Sequence record: OZ335964.1
DNA: 64,000 bases
Source: a phage
Reading direction: 5' to 3' (one strand)
Position 1 is the first letter of the stretch. Every line of letters starts with the position of its first letter. Shown here one piece after another: positions 1 through 60,594 of the stretch. The position numbers were made by a program, and so were the translations under genes. Below the pieces are notes generated by a model that did not search any database, was not told the DNA's origin, and was given only the letters and a program-made list of their open reading frames with translations.

Positions 1-2817
<2,817 letters not shown>

Positions 2818-2851: not shown

Positions 2852-4852
2852 ATGACTCTATTATCACCGGGTTTCGAAACGAAAGAAACTACTCTCTCCA
2901 CTACCATTGTGCAATCTGCGACTGGTCGCGCTGCACTGGTGGGTAAATTCCAATGGGGTCCAGCTTTCCAGATTGTTCAAGTGACTAATGAAGTTGAATT
3001 AGTTAATAAATTTGGTCAGCCGGACAGCAACACCGCAGATTATTTTATGAGTGGTGCTAACTTCCTCCAGTATGGTAACGATCTCCGTGTTGTTCGTGTA
3101 CTGAATACAGAGAAAGCTAAAAACGCAACTACCCTCGCGGACAACGTAGAATTTAATATTACTAATGAAGGTTCCAACTATAAAGTTGGTGATCAGATTA
3201 AAGTAAAATATAACCGCACAGAAGTAGAAACGGCTGGTAAAGTAACTAAAGTTGATGCGGAAGGTAAAATTAAGGGCGTATTCATTCCTACTGGCAAGAT
3301 CATTGCTCTCGCTAAATCTGTAGGAGTTTATCCTAATCTGGCAGGGTTTACCGTTGAAATTACTTCCAGCACAGGTAACTCCAATGGTGCAATGACGCTG
3401 GCAAGCGTTGTTACTGATTCCGGTCTTCTGTTAACTGATCTGGAAACTTCCCGCGATAAAATCACTAACCAGACCTTCTTGAATAAACTCAAGAAATATG
3501 ATATGCCGTCTGTAAGTGCTATCTATGCTGGTGAAATTGGCAACTCGTTAGAAGTTGAAATCCTGGCGCGTAGTGCATTTACTGGAACTGCACCGAATCT
3601 GACTATGTACCCTTACGGCGGCGAGCGTACCGCAGCACGCAACCTTGTACCTTATGGTCCACAGACTGATGATCAGTATGCTATCATTGTTCGTCGCGAT
3701 GGTGTTGTGGTAGAATCCTTTGTATTGTCTACCCAGAAAGGAGATAAAGACGTTTACGGCAATTCCATCTATATGGATGATTTCTTTGCCCGTGGTGCTA
3801 GCCAATACATCTACGCAACGTCTCACGGTTGGGTAAAAGGCTTTAGTGGTATCATTTCTCTTGCAGGTGGTGTTTCTGCTAACGAAGCAAGCACAGGTCA
3901 TGACGGTCAGAATGATCCGTTTATCGGTGCTATGATGAAAGGCTGGGATCTGTTTGCTGAACGCGAATCTATCCACGTAAACCTGTTGATTGCTGGTGCA
4001 TGTGCTGGTGAGGCTGATACTTTCTCTACAGTCCAGAAATACGCTGTTTCCATCGGTGATGAGCGTCAGGATTGTTTGGTAATGATTTCTCCGCCGCGTA
4101 GCACTGTTGTTAACATTCCGGTAACTACCGCAGTAGACAATCTGATCAACTGGCGCGAAGGTAAAGATAACTATTCTGAAAACAACATGAATATCAATAC
4201 CACCTACGCAGTTATTGACGGTAACTACAAATATCAATATGACAAGTACAACGATGTAAACCGTTGGATTCCTCTGGCTGCCGATATTGCTGGCTTGTGT
4301 GCTCGTACAGATGCAGTTTCCCAACCGTGGATGAGTCCGGCAGGTTATAACCGAGGTCAGATCCTGAACGTGGTTAAACTAGCAATTGAGCCTCGTAAAG
4401 CACATCGTGATCGTCTGTATCAATGCGCCATTAACCCGATCATTGGTGCGGGTGGTGAAGGATTTGTGCTGCTGGGCGATAAGACTGCTACAACTGTTCC
4501 GAGTCCGTTTGATCGCATTAACGTTCGTCGTTTGTTCAACATGCTGAAAAAGAATATCGGTGATTCAAGCAAATACAAACTGTTTGAAAACAACGATAAC
4601 TTCACTCGTGCATCTTTCCGCATGGAAGTTTCGCAGTATCTGAACACGATCCGCTCGTTGGGTGGCATCTATGATTTCCGCGTACAGTGTGACACCACAA
4701 ACAACACCGCAGACGTGATTGACCGTAATGAGTTCGTGGCTAGCATGTTCATCAAACCTGCTAAATCCATCAATTACATTATGTTGAACTTCACGGCTGT
4801 TGCAACTGGTGCTGACTTCGACGAAATCATCGGTCCAGCTAATCAGGCGTAA
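2852..4852 (+). CDS. 18: Tail sheath protein (T4 gp18-like)
   Basis: 666-aa ORF directly after gene 17, size and position match T4 gp18; RBS GAGGAAA upstream. Confidence 0.9.
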   Translation: MTLLSPGFETKETTLSTTIVQSATGRAALVGKFQWGPAFQIVQVTNEVELVNKFGQPDSNTADYFMSGANFLQYGNDLRVVRVLNTEKAKNATTLADNVEFNITNEGSNYKVGDQIKVKYNRTEVETAGKVTKVDAEGKIKGVFIPTGKIIALAKSVGVYPNLAGFTVEITSSTGNSNGAMTLASVVTDSGLLLTDLETSRDKITNQTFLNKLKKYDMPSVSAIYAGEIGNSLEVEILARSAFTGTAPNLTMYPYGGERTAARNLVPYGPQTDDQYAIIVRRDGVVVESFVLSTQKGDKDVYGNSIYMDDFFARGASQYIYATSHGWVKGFSGIISLAGGVSANEASTGHDGQNDPFIGAMMKGWDLFAERESIHVNLLIAGACAGEADTFSTVQKYAVSIGDERQDCLVMISPPRSTVVNIPVTTAVDNLINWREGKDNYSENNMNINTTYAVIDGNYKYQYDKYNDVNRWIPLAADIAGLCARTDAVSQPWMSPAGYNRGQILNVVKLAIEPRKAHRDRLYQCAINPIIGAGGEGFVLLGDKTATTVPSPFDRINVRRLFNMLKKNIGDSSKYKLFENNDNFTRASFRMEVSQYLNTIRSLGGIYDFRVQCDTTNNTADVIDRNEFVASMFIKPAKSINYIMLNFTAVATGADFDEIIGPANQA

Positions 4853-55800: not shown

Positions 55801-58044
55801 TTACAGTTTGCAAGATGAACATTCGCTAGCGTCTTCCGTACCATCAGCACCATCACGCACGTTAGCGTAATACAGTGTCTTGAGGCCGTAATATTGAGCA
55901 AATAACATATCATCTAATACATCAGCAATATCGACTTTACCAGTCTTATAAGTGCTTGGATCATAGGATGTATTGGAACTAATCGCCTGGTCGACAAACT
56001 TCTGCATAATAGCTGCCAGTGTCAGATAAGGCTTGTTACCTTTCTTGATCAGTGTCCAAAGCAAGTCAATAACATCAGCATTATTCTCTACGTTCGGAAT
56101 AACCTGATTAAATTGCCCTTCTTTCGATCCTTTAACCGATACAATCCCGCGAGGCGGTTCAATACCGTTTGTGCTGTTAGACACCTGAGAAGACGACTCA
56201 CAAGGCATCAGCGCCGAAAGCGTACTGTTACGAATGCCATATTTTTTCAGGTCTTCGCGCAGTTCTTCCCAATCCATCTCATACACCGGGTCAACCAGTT
56301 CATCTACTGTCTTTTTGTACCAGTCGATAGGCAGTTCACCGCGACCATAACGTGTTTCGTGCATCAGTTCGCAAGCACCCTTCTCTTTAGCCAGTTGCAC
56401 ACTAGCCTTAATCAGAGCATATTGCAAGCGTTCAAACGTTTTATGCGTAAACTCGTTGGCGTCTTCATATGTGAAGAAATTATCCGCCAGATATGATGCA
56501 AAGTTAGTCACACCAACACCCAGAGAGCGACGTTTTTTTGCTGTCAGAGCTTGTTCTACGGGATAATCCTGGTAATCTAACAAGTTGTCAAGTGCACGCA
56601 CCATAACCATAGCAATGCGTTCTACTTCTTCCATGTTTTCGATATCGAAATTACCTAAAACATATGCTGCCAAAGTACATAGGCTGATCTCTGAATCATC
56701 ACGCCCCATTGGTTTAGTAGGCAGTGCAATTTCGCAACACAGGTTAGATTGTTTAATCGGTGCTACATTGCGAATAAACGCCCCGTGATTGTTCATGTTG
56801 TCTGTGAACGCTGGATAGATTCGACCAGTGTTAAAACGTTCAATTGCCACCGCTAAAAACAGGTCTTCGGCTTTAACACGAGTTTTACGAACACTCGGAT
56901 CTTTTTCCAGTTTTTCGTAAAGCTGGCGGAAACCTTCCTCATCTCGGAAGTACAGATCCCACAACAAGCCACCTGCAACATCTGGACTAAACAGAGTAAT
57001 GTAATCCCGTTTAAGGAATCGCTCTACCATCAGGTTATTAATCTGTACGCCGTAATCAAGATGGCGAATGCGGTTATCTTCTACCCCTTTGTTGTTCTTC
57101 AACACAATAAGACTTTCAAACTCTAAATGCCACATTGGGTAATAGAGAGTCGCCGCCCCGCCACGAATACCGCCTTGTGAGCATGACTTAACGGCAGTCT
57201 GAAAATGTTTCCAGAATGGGATAACGCCAGTATGACGAACTTCACCATGCCCGATCTTAGATCCTTCCGCGCGAATCATGCCAGCGTTGATACCGATGCC
57301 AGCACGCTTACTAATATACTTGATGATTGCATTTGCTGTTTCGTTGATGCCCTGCAATGAGTCATCAGATTCGATCACCACACACGAACTAAATTGGCGT
57401 GTTGGAGTACGCACACCAGCCATAATCGGAGTAGGAAGAGAAATTTGCTTATTAGCAACAGCATTATAAAAATCAATCACATGTTCAAGTCGATTTTCTG
57501 TCTCTTCTTGATGTAAACACATACCGATCAGCATATACGCAAATTGCGGTGTTTCGATGATTTTCTTAGTGCTGCGATCCTGAACAAGATATTTCTCTTT
57601 TAATTGCATCGCACCAGCATAGGTCATTTTAAAATCAAGTTTATGATCGATGAATTTCTCCAGATATTCCACTTCTTCACGGGAATACTTTTGCAGAATT
57701 TCGCGATCATATTTTCCGGTTGCAATATTACGCTCAATATGGCTGTAAAAATCAATCGGTTGGAATTGACCGTATACTGATTTACGAAGCGCGAACATTG
57801 CAAGGTTACTTGCTACATATTGATAATCAGGTGTTTCTACAGTAATGTTGTCTGCGGCGACCTTAATCAATACTTTCTGGATATCGTTGGTAGACATACC
57901 TTCTGTCAGAAGTGGTTCAACCATATCAAACAATTCATATGGATCAACGTTATGACCTTCGGCTGCCGCTTCCAGAATTTTCATTACTTTTTCTTTTTCA
58001 AACGGAACAGTCAGACCGGAAGACTTAACAACATTTTTAATCAT
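55801..58044 (-). CDS. nrdA: Ribonucleotide reductase large subunit
   Basis: 747 aa; ATP-cone N-terminus, active-site NLCCEI, C-terminal CSSC-type redox tail. Confidence 0.92.
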   Translation of the reverse strand: MIKNVVKSSGLTVPFEKEKVMKILEAAAEGHNVDPYELFDMVEPLLTEGMSTNDIQKVLIKVAADNITVETPDYQYVASNLAMFALRKSVYGQFQPIDFYSHIERNIATGKYDREILQKYSREEVEYLEKFIDHKLDFKMTYAGAMQLKEKYLVQDRSTKKIIETPQFAYMLIGMCLHQEETENRLEHVIDFYNAVANKQISLPTPIMAGVRTPTRQFSSCVVIESDDSLQGINETANAIIKYISKRAGIGINAGMIRAEGSKIGHGEVRHTGVIPFWKHFQTAVKSCSQGGIRGGAATLYYPMWHLEFESLIVLKNNKGVEDNRIRHLDYGVQINNLMVERFLKRDYITLFSPDVAGGLLWDLYFRDEEGFRQLYEKLEKDPSVRKTRVKAEDLFLAVAIERFNTGRIYPAFTDNMNNHGAFIRNVAPIKQSNLCCEIALPTKPMGRDDSEISLCTLAAYVLGNFDIENMEEVERIAMVMVRALDNLLDYQDYPVEQALTAKKRRSLGVGVTNFASYLADNFFTYEDANEFTHKTFERLQYALIKASVQLAKEKGACELMHETRYGRGELPIDWYKKTVDELVDPVYEMDWEELREDLKKYGIRNSTLSALMPCESSSQVSNSTNGIEPPRGIVSVKGSKEGQFNQVIPNVENNADVIDLLWTLIKKGNKPYLTLAAIMQKFVDQAISSNTSYDPSTYKTGKVDIADVLDDMLFAQYYGLKTLYYANVRDGADGTEDASECSSCKL

Positions 58045-58113
58045 ATTACCTCACTTCATATTTTAGCAGGAACAAGTTTATCCTCCATATTGGGGGCTTT
58101 CGCCCCCCTTTGT

Positions 58114-59346
58114 TTATACTGCCATTTGAGCGGTGATTGCTGGATGGCTTTGATAGTTGTGAATTTTAAAGTCTTTCGGAGTCTTTGTCAATACCTCATC
58201 TAATGATTTAAATTCCGGCAACTCAATTGTTGGTTTATCAAACGGAACACGGCTTAACTGTTCCATAACTTGATCAAAATGGTTTTTGTAAATGTGAGTA
58301 TCTCCACCAGAGAAAATCAGTTCTCCTACCTCAAGATCACACATTTTCGCTATGATGTGAGTTAACAGCGCATAGCTGGCAACATTAAAGGGCAAGCCCA
58401 AAAAGCTGTCTACGCTTCGCTGAAACCACATACAAGACAGTTTACCTTCATTGACATAGAATTGTACGAACGGATGACATACACCCAATACAGCATTATG
58501 TGTTCCTTGTACGTTCCATGAGTCAATGATGATACGTCGATCCGTTGGATTGTTTTTAATTTGTTCAATCACGTTTTGTAACTGGTCTTCCCAAATCTTC
58601 GGGCGATAGACATATTCTTCATCGTCTTTAGTGCTCGATGTGTCTACGTCCATACTAGCAAAGATCGTGGTATCTGGCGCTAAAATATCCCCGCCCAGAT
58701 AATCACTATCAAGCAGATAACCGAAATAACCATCATCTACCCATTCCTGGAATCCCCACAAGCAATATGCATCATTAACAAAATTAGATTGAGTCTTCCA
58801 GTGGTCTGCTACTAAGAATAGATTATATTCAGAATCAAACTCTTCATAACGCATACCACGCCAGATGGCACATAAACGGTCTTCTGTTTCATTGGTTGGC
58901 GTAAAGTCTTCTACCCACGGGTGCTTAAATGTATGTGTATATTTGCTCTTAACGCGCTTAATTTTGATTTCACCGTGTGGATGAATCGGTTTGCGTCGCC
59001 AAGCCATACCATACATATTGCCGACATTATAACCATTGAATCGCAAAGGATTCTTTTCTTTCATATCAAGACAGTTGCCGCGCCAAATGTCGAAGGCTTC
59101 TTCGTCAAACTTACCGCGTGTAATTTCCTGTAAGCGACGGCGGTCAAGTGATCCCTCCATAAACCATAGCAACTCGCCAATTACAGAGGCTGTAGCCATC
59201 TTTTTAGTGGTCAGTAAGGGGAAACCCTTGCTTAAATCGATTCGCATCTCTGCGCCGAATTTAGAGAGCGTACCTACCCCCGTGCGGTCTTCACGAGGCC
59301 AGCCATTATCAAGAACATCACGCAACAGTTTCAAATATTCTTTCAT
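58114..59346 (-). CDS. td: Thymidylate synthase with a large in-frame insertion
   Basis: Aligns with ThyA at both ends (DRTGVGT, LLWF, RRIIIDSWNV, CHPFVQFYVNEGKLSC, FLGLPFNVASYALLTHI, GGDTHIY); about 130 extra residues between them; no intron. Confidence 0.88.
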   Translation of the reverse strand: MKEYLKLLRDVLDNGWPREDRTGVGTLSKFGAEMRIDLSKGFPLLTTKKMATASVIGELLWFMEGSLDRRRLQEITRGKFDEEAFDIWRGNCLDMKEKNPLRFNGYNVGNMYGMAWRRKPIHPHGEIKIKRVKSKYTHTFKHPWVEDFTPTNETEDRLCAIWRGMRYEEFDSEYNLFLVADHWKTQSNFVNDAYCLWGFQEWVDDGYFGYLLDSDYLGGDILAPDTTIFASMDVDTSSTKDDEEYVYRPKIWEDQLQNVIEQIKNNPTDRRIIIDSWNVQGTHNAVLGVCHPFVQFYVNEGKLSCMWFQRSVDSFLGLPFNVASYALLTHIIAKMCDLEVGELIFSGGDTHIYKNHFDQVMEQLSRVPFDKPTIELPEFKSLDEVLTKTPKDFKIHNYQSHPAITAQMAV

Positions 59347-59587
59347 CCCACTTCACCTTTTTCTTATTGATTGCTTTCTTACGCAGTTTTGCTACTGTCT
59401 CGTCAATATCGATAAAGACAACGCCCGGATCGAATACAGTAACAGGTCTTGAAATGTCGCTATTTTCCTGTACTGGAAGCCATGACGCTTTAGCTTCATC
59501 ATAGAGATATTGTAAACCGTAATAATCTACGGCTACTGCGTAGTTTTCACTGGTAGCTGACCATAATTGAATAATGGTTATTTTCAT
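59318..59587 (-). CDS. Hypothetical protein (start set at MKIT)
   Basis: ORF between frd and td. Confidence 0.45.
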   Translation of the reverse strand: MKITIIQLWSATSENYAVAVDYYGLQYLYDEAKASWLPVQENSDISRPVTVFDPGVVFIDIDETVAKLRKKAINKKKVKWDERIFETVA

Positions 59588-59680
59588 TATTGTTCCCGTC
59601 CGCAATGTAAACACCGACTACCAGCAAACATCAAAGATTCACCACAATGTTTGCACTCATAATCTGTCAGAATTTTCATG

Positions 59681-60250
59681 TTACACCTTCTTACGTTCTA
59701 AAATTTGTTCGCTGATCAGGTAATCATCAAGGAAGTAATTATGTTCTTCTTTTGTTGCAAAGTCAAAATATAATTCCTGAATCATTTCCTTAGAGATACC
59801 AACATCATATTCAAATGGATCGTTGATTCCTGAACGTTGAACATACGTTAACACAATACGATCCGCAAAGTCAACCGCTTTTTCAATCAGGGAAGGTCCA
59901 CCGATAACACTTACCAAACCTTGCGTTTTCTCTAGGGCTTTTAACAGATCCTTCAATTCAATTCCAGTGTACACATCAGGTTGGTCGCCGTTTTTTGTTT
60001 TCGGTTCTGGCTTGCTGGTATCGGTGCTAACAACCACATTCAAGCGCCCCCAAAGTGCTTTAGGCAGACTTTCAAAGGTATTACGTCCCATTACTACCGC
60101 AGCAAAATCAACCTCACCAATGGTGCGGATTTTAAAGTTCTCCATATCTTTTTTGATTGGACGACCCCACGGTAAACCGCCTTTAAAACCAAAAGCCCAA
60201 TTTTCATCCGACATTTTAGTGTCACCAATCGCAAATACACATTGAATCAT
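59681..60250 (-). CDS. frd: Dihydrofolate reductase
   Basis: DHFR N-terminal motif (GLPWGRPIKKDMENFK); start set at MIQCVFA with RBS AGGAGA. Confidence 0.85.
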   Translation of the reverse strand: MIQCVFAIGDTKMSDENWAFGFKGGLPWGRPIKKDMENFKIRTIGEVDFAAVVMGRNTFESLPKALWGRLNVVVSTDTSKPEPKTKNGDQPDVYTGIELKDLLKALEKTQGLVSVIGGPSLIEKAVDFADRIVLTYVQRSGINDPFEYDVGISKEMIQELYFDFATKEEHNYFLDDYLISEQILERKKV

Positions 60251-60264
60251 AATATAATCTCCTG

Positions 60265-60594
60265 TCAAATCAATTTAAAGAAGTTTTCGTTTACATTTTC
60301 TTCGGTGATTGCTGTCTTAAATTCAGCTTCATCATCAGGCGAAACATAATAGCGTTCGGAATAATCACGCCACATTTTCAGTAAGCTAACACCAACATTA
60401 ACACCATTTTCCCAGAAACGGAATACAATTTTATGTGCGGTGTAACGGTAATCACTTTGAATCAAGCTACCATCCCCGCGACGAGATTCATAAACCGTAA
60501 TACATTCACGATTAGCGGCTTTAATGCATTCTTCAATAGTTCCACACGAGACAATTTCGGTTGATTCGTCTACGATTTTTTCTACTGTCCACAT
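60265..60594 (-). CDS. Hypothetical protein
   Basis: 109-aa ORF behind an early promoter cassette. Confidence 0.5.
   Translation of the reverse strand: MWTVEKIVDESTEIVSCGTIEECIKAANRECITVYESRRGDGSLIQSDYRYTAHKIVFRFWENGVNVGVSLLKMWRDYSERYYVSPDDEAEFKTAITEENVNENFFKLI

What the first reader, a model, noticed from the sequence alone, without database searches (positions are those of the whole stretch)
58597..58992. About 130-residue in-frame insertion in thymidylate synthase
The td ORF aligns with ThyA at both ends and across the catalytic core, but roughly 130 extra residues lie between the GNMYGMAWRR and EDQLQNVIEQIKNNPTDRRIIIDSWNV segments, the variable small-domain region of thymidylate synthases. 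The insert has no intein boundary signature (no Cys/Ser start, no terminal HN) and the gene is a continuous ORF without the group I intron found in T4 td. It may be an added interaction domain; in T4, thymidylate synthase has been reported as both an enzyme and a virion-associated protein.
Basis: partly seen in the sequence, partly recalled or inferred. Interest (0 to 1): 0.4.

Follow-up and report, generated by a model that had tools for sequence, protein, structure and literature searches.

The report
Decayed endonuclease domain inside thymidylate synthase
This phage's thymidylate synthase has the worn-down remains of a homing-endonuclease-like (selfish DNA-cutting) domain built into a surface hairpin and translated as part of the enzyme, so a mobile-element relic sits in an essential enzyme with no intron or intein to remove it.

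Summary
The td ORF (58114-59346, minus strand, 410 aa) is a complete ThyA. It has 136 residues between the conserved GxxYGxxWR and DQ motifs, where E. coli has 10 and T4 has 5. All 59 Krischvirus (RB49-like) genomes found carry this insert.

It is not an intein, an intron or an assembly error. It is a shrunken homologue of a phage protein family that PHROGs annotates as HNH homing endonucleases (PHROG 2081/953/374). Larger versions of 173-284 aa lie at the same ThyA site in jumbo coliphages and Klebsiella phages, Vibrio phages, a Bacillus phage and more than 25 metagenomic protein clusters; most of those of 194 aa or more keep the family's invariant motifs.

The window copy has lost both flanking modules and keeps 3 of 8 invariant residues. 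It has turned strongly acidic (pI 4.8, against 7.5-9.6 in relatives). It is still predicted to fold confidently (pLDDT 93-94) as a head on a two-stranded beta stalk, and it evolves under purifying selection (dN/dS about 0.13-0.39).

Best reading: an unspliced, catalytically dead relic of an in-frame endonuclease cassette, kept because the host enzyme must still fold. Whether it gained a new function is open. I found no published description.

The parts
58114..59346 (-). td (thyA-type thymidylate synthase) ORF, 410 aa plus stop, containing the nested insert
58996..59346 (-). N-terminal ThyA segment, residues 1-117, ending in GNMYGMAWR
   Evidence: Aligns to T4 Td 1-114 in one stretch. dN/dS is 0-0.07 among Krischvirus genomes.
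58588..58995 (-). The insert, residues 118-253 (136 aa): beta stalk plus head domain derived from an endonuclease-like family
   Evidence: Anchor spacing is 136 aa versus 10 in E. coli and 5 in T4. tblastn of the UE-S1 and D69 inserts hits only here in the window (E 1e-15 and 1e-10). phmmer finds large-insert ThyAs at E 3e-10 to 1e-5 in 1.8 billion proteins.
58957..58995 (-). Ascending strand of the two-stranded beta stalk, residues 118-130 (RKPIHPHGEIKIK)
   Evidence: DSSP strand E118-130 in the full model, pLDDT 94. The P..PHG....I.R motif is shared with large-insert ThyAs.
58891..58956 (-). Linker, residues 131-152. It occupies the place of the N-terminal 'FINTG' beta domain, which is absent here.
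   Evidence: Alignment of inserts with free-standing relatives.
58837..58890 (-). Head helix 1, residues 153-170. It contains RLCAIWRGMRYEEFD, a relic of the family motif Y..W..M..RCY; the Arg-Cys-Tyr part is lost.
   Evidence: Helix H153-170. Invariant table: R98 is E and C99 is E here.
58726..58806 (-). Helical segment, residues 181-207, with the motif DAYCLWGFQEWVDDGY that is conserved in all ThyA inserts
   Evidence: Helices H181-184, H186-193 and H199-204. Conservation seen.
58654..58719 (-). Relic beta-hairpin of the presumed nuclease core, residues 210-231 (LLDSDY...GGDILAPDTTIF). It corresponds to the family motif QLDKDY...GN.IYS..TC.F.
   Evidence: Strands E210-213 and E228-231. Substitutions: K149 to S, Y159 to L, C164 to T; the helix carrying N172 is missing.
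58615..58653 (-). Acidic loop, residues 232-244 (SMDVDTSSTKDDE). It replaces the Asn-bearing helix and the C-terminal NUMOD/AP2-type DNA-binding module of relatives.
   Evidence: Alignment. Net charge of the insert is -11 and pI 4.8.
58588..58614 (-). Descending strand of the stalk, residues 245-253 (YVYRPKIWE), leading back into ThyA at D254-Q255
   Evidence: Strand E245-254. The RP.I(W/Y) motif is shared by nearly all insert-bearing ThyAs.
58117..58587 (-). C-terminal ThyA segment, residues 254-410, with the catalytic Cys290
   Evidence: Aligns to E. coli ThyA 110-264. dN/dS is about 0-0.03 among Krischvirus genomes, except in the recombinant JSE allele.

Best explanation
The insert is the decayed remnant of a homing-endonuclease-like domain. 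The family is annotated as phage 'HNH endonuclease' (PHROG 2081/953/374) and its free-standing members carry AP2 or NUMOD DNA-binding modules. The domain once entered the td gene in frame, at the tip of a naturally length-variable surface hairpin of ThyA.

It is not removed at the RNA or protein level. It is translated as a nested domain: a compact head held away from the enzyme on a two-stranded beta stalk, which leaves the ThyA catalytic core intact.

In the RB49/Krischvirus lineage the element has lost its N-terminal beta domain, its C-terminal DNA-binding module, and most residues that are invariant in the family. It has also become acidic. It most likely no longer binds or cuts DNA.

It probably persists under moderate purifying selection for two reasons. 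Any mutation that misfolds it damages an essential enzyme. A clean deletion that restores a working hairpin is improbable. An occupied site may also be immune to related endonucleases.

Shown: the insertion, its homology, the motif loss, the charge shift, the confident predicted fold, and dN/dS below 1. Inferred: loss of nuclease activity, absence of splicing, and the reason for retention.
For: Homology:
- The inserts of UE-S1 and D69 ThyA match the window only at the td insert (E 1e-15 and 1e-10).
- The free-standing proteins P0006 and P0005 also hit it there (E 5e-5 and 5e-4).
- phmmer with the insert finds large-insert ThyAs at E 3e-10 to 1e-5 among 1.8 billion proteins.
- Those larger inserts match PHROG 2081, 953 and 374 'HNH endonuclease' at E 4e-32, 7e-25 and 8e-21. 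Free-standing relatives match at up to E 1e-73.
- Free-standing relatives carry AP2 (8 of 24) or I-HmuI NUMOD-like (2 of 24) modules.

Fold:
- The insert-only model has pLDDT 93.4.
- BFVD neighbours are long phage ThyAs and small phage proteins, several named homing endonuclease.

Decay:
- All 24 free-standing proteins keep 8 of 8 strict invariants, and every ThyA insert of 194 aa or more except P0047 (234 aa, 2 of 8) keeps 6-8.
- The window keeps 3 of 8, and all short inserts keep 1-4.
- The flanking modules are absent.
- The insert has pI 4.8 and net charge -11, against pI 7.5-9.6 in relatives.

Translation and constraint:
- The ORF is continuous and no Rfam family matches.
- dN/dS is 0.13-0.39 in the insert and 0-0.07 in the ThyA core. 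A binomial test against neutrality gives p about 0.005-0.01.
- The insert remains 38-57% identical in lineages whose ThyA cores are 60-72% identical.

Host enzyme:
- ThyA catalytic residues are intact.
Against: - No biochemical data exist. Loss of nuclease activity is inferred only from motif loss and charge.
- The direct PHROG match of the window insert is not significant (E 0.54), so homology rests on intermediates.
- Purifying selection, the very confident fold, and independent shrinkage to a similar 130-145 aa core in a second lineage (P0036/P0040) could equally mean that the core has acquired a function.
- Within Krischvirus there is no presence/absence polymorphism, so mobility is not shown for this lineage.
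Confidence: 0.7

Rival explanations
1. Exapted domain. The relic has been recruited for a new, non-nuclease role. Possible roles are a protein-protein contact (for example within the phage dNTP-synthesising or replication machinery), an acidic DNA-mimic surface, or regulation of Td.
For: dN/dS is 0.13-0.39, well below 1. Predicted-fold confidence is very high. The motif D.Y.LWGFQEWVD is strongly conserved across all ThyA inserts. The shift to net charge -11, with -16 in the head, is peculiar to the RB49 clade. The reduced form is old: P0033, 51% identical, sits in a 169-kb T4-like contig with frd-td-nrdA-nrdB. A second lineage shrank independently to the same core.
Against: Every one of these observations is also expected for a passenger domain that must simply stay folded inside an essential enzyme. 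The conserved residues are mostly hydrophobic or aromatic core-type. dN/dS is several-fold higher than in the ThyA core. The former catalytic positions vary freely among RB49-type inserts (LDSD, LTQK, LSCD, LSLV). No partner or activity is known.
Confidence: 0.22
2. Still-active homing endonuclease. The nested domain cleaves insert-less td alleles of co-infecting phages and drives its own spread.
For: This is plausible for the large versions, most of which keep 6-8 of 8 invariants. They also show filled and empty alleles in syntenic phage contigs and a co-conversion-like mosaic.
Against: For the window copy: 5 of 8 invariant residues are lost, including the Lys of LDKD and the Asn-bearing helix. 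Both accessory and DNA-binding modules are gone. The domain is acidic. The insert is fixed in all 59 Krischvirus genomes.
Confidence: 0.04
3. Self-splicing element. The segment is an intein removed from the protein, or an intron removed from the mRNA, as in T4 td.
For: T4 td carries a group I intron, and inteins with in-frame HNH domains exist (bioRxiv 10.1101/2025.01.02.630785).
Against: There is no Cys/Ser/Ala nucleophile at the start, no His-Asn end, and no Cys/Ser/Thr after the insert. There is no Hint-domain Pfam hit. Only about 13 and 9 residues flank the head, and they are predicted as a beta ribbon continuous with ThyA strands. No Rfam intron matches. The frame is kept, with indels in multiples of three and dN/dS below 1.
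Confidence: 0.02
4. Ordinary lineage-specific elaboration of the ThyA small domain, unrelated to mobile elements, or an assembly artefact.
For: The hairpin varies from 5 to 34 aa in insert-less ThyAs. L. casei ThyA has a 50-aa small-domain insert.
Against: There is significant similarity to endonuclease-like inserts and free-standing proteins. The L. casei insert lies at a different site. The segment is present in 59 independently sequenced genomes.
Confidence: 0.02

Closest known systems
Free-standing phage 'HNH' homing-endonuclease-like proteins of PHROG 953/2081/374, with AP2 or I-HmuI NUMOD-like DNA-binding modules
   Same: Homologous core: helix Y..W..M..RCY, helical segment, and beta-hairpin QLDKD...IYS..TC.F. 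Predicted-structure neighbours. A weak fold match to the HNH enzyme PacI.
   Different: The window copy is not a separate gene but a nested domain of ThyA. It lacks the N-terminal 'FINTG' beta domain and the AP2/NUMOD module. It keeps 3 of 8 invariant residues and is acidic rather than basic.
Inteins carrying an in-frame homing endonuclease domain, including HNH-type inteins of phages
   Same: An endonuclease-type domain is inserted in frame within a conserved nucleotide-metabolism enzyme, and it decays with time like a mini-intein.
   Different: There is no Hint splicing domain and there are no splice-junction residues. The insert is predicted to stay in the mature protein as a stalked domain.
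T4 td group I intron encoding I-TevI
   Same: The same host gene (td) in a related phage family is targeted by a homing endonuclease.
   Different: In T4 the intervening sequence is an RNA intron with a GIY-YIG endonuclease at a different td position. Here there is no intron, and the endonuclease family and site both differ.
mobE embedded in nrdA of Aeromonas phage Aeh1. Known from the literature; cited via PMC2988022 and the discussion in bioRxiv 10.1101/2025.01.02.630785.
   Same: An HNH-type endonuclease gene sits inside the coding region of a T4-like nucleotide-metabolism gene, with neither intron nor intein.
   Different: mobE splits nrdA into two separately translated polypeptides. Here host and invader form one continuous polypeptide.
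Lactobacillus casei ThyA 50-residue small-domain insert and the short T4 Td inserts
   Same: Lineage-specific extra residues on the surface of ThyA that leave catalysis intact.
   Different: The site differs: the L. casei alignment breaks at window residue 88, while the window insert follows residue 117. They have no relation to endonuclease families.

Membership tests
Thymidylate synthase ThyA (PF00303) | Profile match above the curated threshold | tested here: met
   Pfam 284 bits against a 24.3 cut-off, in two stretches. NCBIfam TIGR03284 283 bits against a 108 cut-off.
Thymidylate synthase ThyA (PF00303) | Catalytic Cys and the dUMP/folate-binding residues (E. coli R21, E58, Y94, R126', R127', C146, H147, R166, S167, D169, N177, H207, Y209) | tested here: met
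   All are conserved: R21, E58, Y112, R270, R271, C290, H291, R310, S311, D313, N321, H351, Y353. W88 is invariant in alignment A1.
Thymidylate synthase ThyA (PF00303) | ThyA fold | tested here: met
Intein | Cys/Ser/Ala as the first residue of the insert, and His-Asn at its end followed by Cys/Ser/Thr | tested here: not met
   The insert starts R118-K-P and ends ...P-K-I-W-E253, followed by D254-Q. The junction residues of relatives are equally unsuitable.
Intein | Hint splicing domain | tested here: not met
   No Hint-family Pfam hit in the window or in larger inserts. The flanks of the head are a two-stranded ribbon of 13 and 9-10 residues.
Group I intron (as in T4 td) | Structured ribozyme RNA interrupting the ORF | tested here: not met
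   No Rfam match at E<=1 in 57900-59700. The ORF is continuous. Selection acts at codon level.
Phage HNH-type homing endonuclease family (PHROG 2081/953/374) | Sequence homology to family members | tested here: met
   Met transitively. Window insert to large ThyA inserts: E 1e-15 and 3e-10. Large inserts to PHROG 2081: E 4e-32. Free-standing P0006 to window: E 5e-5. The direct PHROG hit is only E 0.54.
Phage HNH-type homing endonuclease family (PHROG 2081/953/374) | Family-invariant residues (R98, D148, K149, D150, Y159, T163, C164, N172 in P0007 numbering) | tested here: not met
   The window has E, D, S, D, L, T, T, D at these positions, which is 3 of 8. All 24 free-standing members have 8 of 8.
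Phage HNH-type homing endonuclease family (PHROG 2081/953/374) | Beta-beta-alpha metal-finger fold | tested here: inconclusive
Phage HNH-type homing endonuclease family (PHROG 2081/953/374) | Attached DNA-binding module (AP2 or NUMOD) and a basic surface | tested here: not met
   The module is absent from the window insert. pI is 4.8, against 7.5-9.5 in free-standing members.
Phage HNH-type homing endonuclease family (PHROG 2081/953/374) | Site-specific DNA cleavage | not testable with these tools
   Needs purified protein.
Active homing element | Presence/absence polymorphism at one site among close relatives, with co-conversion of flanks | tested here: not met
   For the window lineage, all 59 Krischvirus genomes carry it. 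For large-insert relatives the feature is met: P0051 (filled) versus P0083 (empty) in syntenic contigs, and the P0050 mosaic.
L. casei-type ThyA small-domain insertion | Insertion between the IW(D) motif and the GxxYGxxWR motif | tested here: not met
   The L. casei chain aligns 5-90 to window 3-88 and 162-316 to window 254-410, so its extra residues follow window residue 88. Window residues 88-117 are contiguous with T4 Td.

The most novel reading that the evidence does not exclude
The ThyA-nested domains may be an unrecognised kind of mobile element: an intein-free, intron-free, in-frame 'stalk plus endonuclease' cassette. It would home into a permissive hairpin of thymidylate synthase genes across unrelated phages (Straboviridae, jumbo coliphages and Klebsiella phages, Vibrio and Tenacibaculum phages, Herelleviridae) and would be expressed as part of the host enzyme. 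On this reading, the RB49-type copy in this window is not mere debris. It would be an exapted acidic domain kept for a function, such as immunity of the td site to related endonucleases, DNA mimicry, or a contact within the nucleotide-synthesis machinery.
Probability: 0.3. Interest if true: 0.8.

Novelty: new variant of a known kind. Interest (0 to 1): 0.6.

Why it matters
Homing endonuclease genes are thought to survive inside essential genes only by hiding in self-splicing introns or inteins, or by sitting between genes. Here an endonuclease-family domain appears to have taken a third route. It is inserted in frame at the tip of a tolerant surface hairpin and remains in the mature enzyme.

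The series from apparently intact to decayed copies gives a natural record of the gain-decay cycle of such an element, and it sits in a well-understood, assayable enzyme. Large copies that keep 6-8 of 8 invariants occur in UE-S1 and phiKp_21 and in the Vibrio D69 ThyA-like gene, and the Bacillus 015DV002 copy keeps the motifs. Intermediates are P0047 and P0152. Relics occur in RB49/Krischvirus and in P0036/P0040.

There is also a practical point. The insert causes misannotation: Vibrio phage D69 and RefSeq Tenacibaculum PTm1 ThyA-like genes are labelled 'HNH endonuclease'. It also marks a permissive site for domain insertion in ThyA.

For the window itself the biological consequence is probably modest: a working Td that carries a passenger domain.

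Tried and rejected
- Pfam on the insert alone and on the larger inserts found nothing beyond ThyA.
- The word-indexed protein search with the 134-aa insert found nothing.
- A PDB sequence-profile search with the free-standing family matched only the AP2 part, at E 0.34.
- NCBIfam found no family for the endonuclease-like core.
- The afdb50 fold library was unavailable.
- In the representative search, P0148 and P0149 (E 1e-14) are low-complexity repeat proteins and were discarded as spurious.
- The intein and intron readings were rejected.
- Misassembly was rejected.
- Equivalence with the L. casei small-domain insert was rejected.
- No other copy of this endonuclease family lies in the 64-kb window.
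- GC content shows no clear foreign-DNA signature across the insert.
- Literature searches found no description of the td insert. They covered RB49 and T4-like genome papers, a mobile-element review, a jumbo-phage survey, the UE-S1 genome paper, the Bastille-group TS paper and an actinophage intein survey. Desplats et al. 2002 could not be read.

Full report
**Observation.** The td ORF occupies window 58114-59346 on the minus strand and encodes 410 aa without interruption. It lies between frd (59681-60268) and nrdA (55801-58044), the T4-like arrangement.

Pfam recognises thymidylate synthase in two separated stretches (E 1e-84). E. coli ThyA residues 1-82 and 110-264 align to window residues 1-82 and 254-410. 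T4 Td residues 1-114 align to window 1-117, and T4 Td 120-286 to window 254-410.

I anchored on the conserved GxxYGxxWR and DQ(L/I) motifs. The window has 136 residues between them (118-253; nt 58588-58995), against 10 in E. coli and 5 in T4.

The window is a Krischvirus (RB49-like) genome, with td 98% identical in nucleotides to RB49. All 59 members found have the insert at 91-100% amino-acid identity. It is therefore a real, fixed feature of the genus.

**Not an intron or an intein.** No Rfam family matches the region at E<=1. The frame is continuous, and a 4-codon indel distinguishes the JSE/Phi1 group. The insert starts R-K-P and ends P-K-I-W-E before D-Q. It has no nucleophile, no His-Asn and no Hint-domain match.

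**Not the classical ThyA variable insert.** The L. casei enzyme aligns 5-90 to window 3-88 and resumes at 162 to window 254. Its 50 extra residues therefore lie about 30 positions upstream of the window's insertion point. The hairpin used here is nevertheless naturally variable, from 5 to 34 residues in insert-less relatives.

**Anatomy.** AlphaFold2 with a 63-sequence alignment gives pLDDT 94 and pTM 0.92 for the whole protein. With a 51-sequence alignment it gives pLDDT 93.4 for the insert alone.

- Residues 118-130 and 245-254 form a long two-stranded beta ribbon, a stalk that extends the ThyA hairpin.
- Residues about 153-231 form a compact head: a long helix (153-170), three short helices (181-204) and a beta-hairpin (210-213, 228-231).
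- An acidic loop (232-244) follows.

**What the insert is.** tblastn of the insert against phage genomes found weak but significant matches (31-35% identity) at the same position of much longer td genes. These are Escherichia phage UE-S1 (Asteriusvirus, 517 aa), Klebsiella phages phiKp_21 and KP13-7, and Vibrio phage D69 (477 aa, annotated 'HNH endonuclease').

These larger inserts match PHROG families annotated 'HNH endonuclease': 2081 at E 4e-32, 953 at 7e-25 and 374 at 8e-21. Searching with the UE-S1 insert recovered free-standing phage proteins of about 175-360 aa. These belong to the same PHROGs at up to E 1e-73. They end in AP2 (8 of 24) or I-HmuI NUMOD-like (2 of 24) DNA-binding modules, which is the architecture of phage homing endonucleases.

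A full-library phmmer search with the window insert returned only insert-bearing ThyAs, apart from two spurious low-complexity proteins. Within the window, the td insert is the only place these proteins match.

**Graded series and decay.** A search with the whole Td found about 25 clusters of insert-bearing ThyAs, and the phmmer search added more. Their inserts fall into three size classes.

- 228-284 aa: an N-terminal 'FINTG' beta domain, the core, and a C-terminal beta-beta-helix module like NUMOD.
- 173-198 aa: no N-terminal domain.
- 127-145 aa: core only.

In the free-standing family eight residues are strictly invariant: R98, D148, K149, D150, Y159, T163, C164 and N172 in P0007 numbering. 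All 24 free-standing proteins keep 8 of 8. Every ThyA insert of 194 aa or more except P0047 keeps 6-8. Every insert of 176 aa or less, together with the 234-aa intermediate P0047, keeps only 1-4. The window keeps 3.

The former LDKD motif is LDSD here. In its nearest relatives it is LTQK, LSCD or LSLV, so it is no longer constrained. The window insert is also acidic: net charge -11 and pI 4.8, with the head at -16 over 91 residues. Free-standing members have pI 7.5-9.5 and large inserts have pI 8.2-9.6. Loss of the DNA-binding modules, of the invariant residues and of positive charge together argue that the RB49-type domain no longer binds or cuts DNA. This is an inference.

**Selection.** Among six Krischvirus alleles, pairwise dN/dS is 0.13-0.39 in the insert and 0-0.07 in the ThyA segments. 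The excess of synonymous changes over neutral expectation has p about 0.005-0.01 in the most divergent pairs.

In more distant relatives (P0030-P0033) the insert is 38-57% identical where the ThyA cores are 60-72% identical. P0033 lies in a 169-kb T4-like contig with frd-td-nrdA-nrdB. The reduced form is therefore old and constrained, though less so than the enzyme.

**Evidence that the ancestral element was mobile (from relatives, not from the window).** In a neighbour-joining tree of ThyA cores with inserts removed, P0051 and P0052 (inserts of 281 and 284 aa) nest inside a clade of insert-less ThyAs.

P0051 and the insert-less P0083 are about 94% identical outside the site. They lie in syntenic phage contigs (238/237-aa gene, 98-aa gene, DHFR, TS), and their td flanks are 82-87% identical in nucleotides.

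P0050 is a mosaic. Its distal parts are closest to the insert-less P0096 (22/30 and 36/40 identical). The roughly 35 residues upstream of the insert resemble insert-bearing ThyAs (19-20/34 against 11/34 for P0096), and sequence motifs just downstream (NAVL..CH) do too, though window identities there do not discriminate. This pattern is like a co-conversion tract.

P0036 and P0040, in an Asteriusvirus/Alcyoneusvirus-like context, carry a reduced, decayed insert. Their sister lineage (UE-S1, phiKp_21) keeps a full one. Shrinkage has therefore occurred at least twice.

The free-standing family is widespread, with 455 phage records. Its members are also found inside annotated thymidylate synthase genes of unrelated phages:

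- Bacillus phage 015DV002: 564 aa, same site, motifs retained.
- Tenacibaculum phages PTm1 and PTm5.
- Enterococcus phage vB_EfaM_A2: 491 aa, at a different site, between IWDSW and GKAYGFQ.

**Mechanism proposed.** An endonuclease-like cassette, probably together with its own stalk, entered td in frame at the hairpin tip. The head is held away from the enzyme, so ThyA tolerates it without splicing. In the Krischvirus lineage the nuclease function was lost and the peripheral modules were deleted.

The remaining core persists for two likely reasons. Misfolding would harm an essential enzyme, and a deletion must restore a functional hairpin. An occupied site may also escape cleavage by related endonucleases. 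The main rival is exaptation of the acidic head for a new function. The present data cannot separate 'must fold' from 'must function'.

**Comparison with known systems.** The element works like a decayed intein-borne or intron-borne homing endonuclease, in that it invaded a conserved nucleotide-metabolism gene and then degenerated. It fails every defining test for inteins and introns. It resembles mobE embedded in Aeh1 nrdA in lacking a splicing element, but here host and invader form one polypeptide. It is homologous to the PHROG 2081/953 family yet fails that family's invariant-residue and DNA-binding-module tests. I file it as a derived relic, not a functional member.

I found no published description. 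The literature library is incomplete, so this is not proof of novelty.

**Verdict.** The window feature is a new variant of a known kind: an unspliced, in-frame, endonuclease-derived nested domain in ThyA, here in its decayed form. Interest is moderate to fairly high. Most of it comes from the wider phenomenon, for which this window is the entry point.

Noticed in passing
L004:447-1670 (phage JSE td) compared with window 58114-59346; also P0029: The JSE-type td is a recombinant. The N-terminal ThyA part and the insert differ from the window at dS 0.15-0.21. The whole C-terminal ThyA part (from residue 254) differs at dS about 0.83 and dN 0.13. The breakpoint sits at the 3' edge of the insert.
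   Followed up: partly
L016:2102-3577 (Enterococcus phage vB_EfaM_A2, annotated thymidylate synthase, 491 aa): The same endonuclease-like domain, with LDKD and the other motifs retained, is nested in a divergent ThyA-superfamily protein at a different site. It lies between IWDSW and GKAYGFQ, roughly the L. casei insertion site. The family has therefore entered this enzyme family at two or more positions.
   Followed up: partly
L015:1847-3541 (Bacillus phage 015DV002, 564 aa); Tenacibaculum phages PTm1/PTm5 (hits H96-H98): Full-size, motif-retaining endonuclease-like inserts lie in ThyA genes of Herelleviridae and Bacteroidota phages. RefSeq labels the PTm1 gene 'HNH endonuclease', while GenBank labels it 'thymidylate synthase and pyrimidine hydroxymethylase'.
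   Followed up: partly
L017:819-3701 (Caulobacter phage RW DNA polymerase); L018:804-3785 (APSE-7 DNA polymerase): The free-standing family member P0005 also matches inside annotated DNA polymerase genes. There the match is in a reading frame different from the annotated CDS (match starts at 3001, CDS starts at 819 and 804). This could be an overlapping or intein-associated endonuclease ORF.
   Followed up: no
L001:2638-4071 (Vibrio phage D69); P0154-P0156: These insert-bearing ThyA-like proteins have ETRSGKV in place of the DRTGTGT phosphate-binding loop, along with other core changes. The D69 gene is annotated only as 'HNH endonuclease'. They may have a different substrate.
   Followed up: no
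window 59318-59614 (-): A 98-aa ORF (GTG start) overlaps the td start by 29 nt, between frd and td. Krischvirus records annotate the same gene with a later start (270 nt, 89 aa), giving the same 29-nt overlap with td. Its function is unknown.
   Followed up: no
L009:1560-3218 versus L011:4371-5270: Syntenic metagenomic phage contigs carry td with a 281-aa insert and td with a 28-aa hairpin at the same site. The flanks are 82-87% identical in nucleotides. Insert GC is 0.38, against 0.41-0.43 in the flanks.
   Followed up: yes
window residues 172-175 of Td (nt about 58822-58833): A four-codon indel (SEYN) in the loop after head helix 1 separates the RB49 group from the JSE/Phi1/G2248 group. This loop corresponds to the deleted RCY...Y segment of the ancestral motif.
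   Followed up: partly
P0046 (613 aa, JGI metagenome): An insert-bearing ThyA with an additional N-terminal extension of about 95 aa and unknown nature.
   Followed up: no
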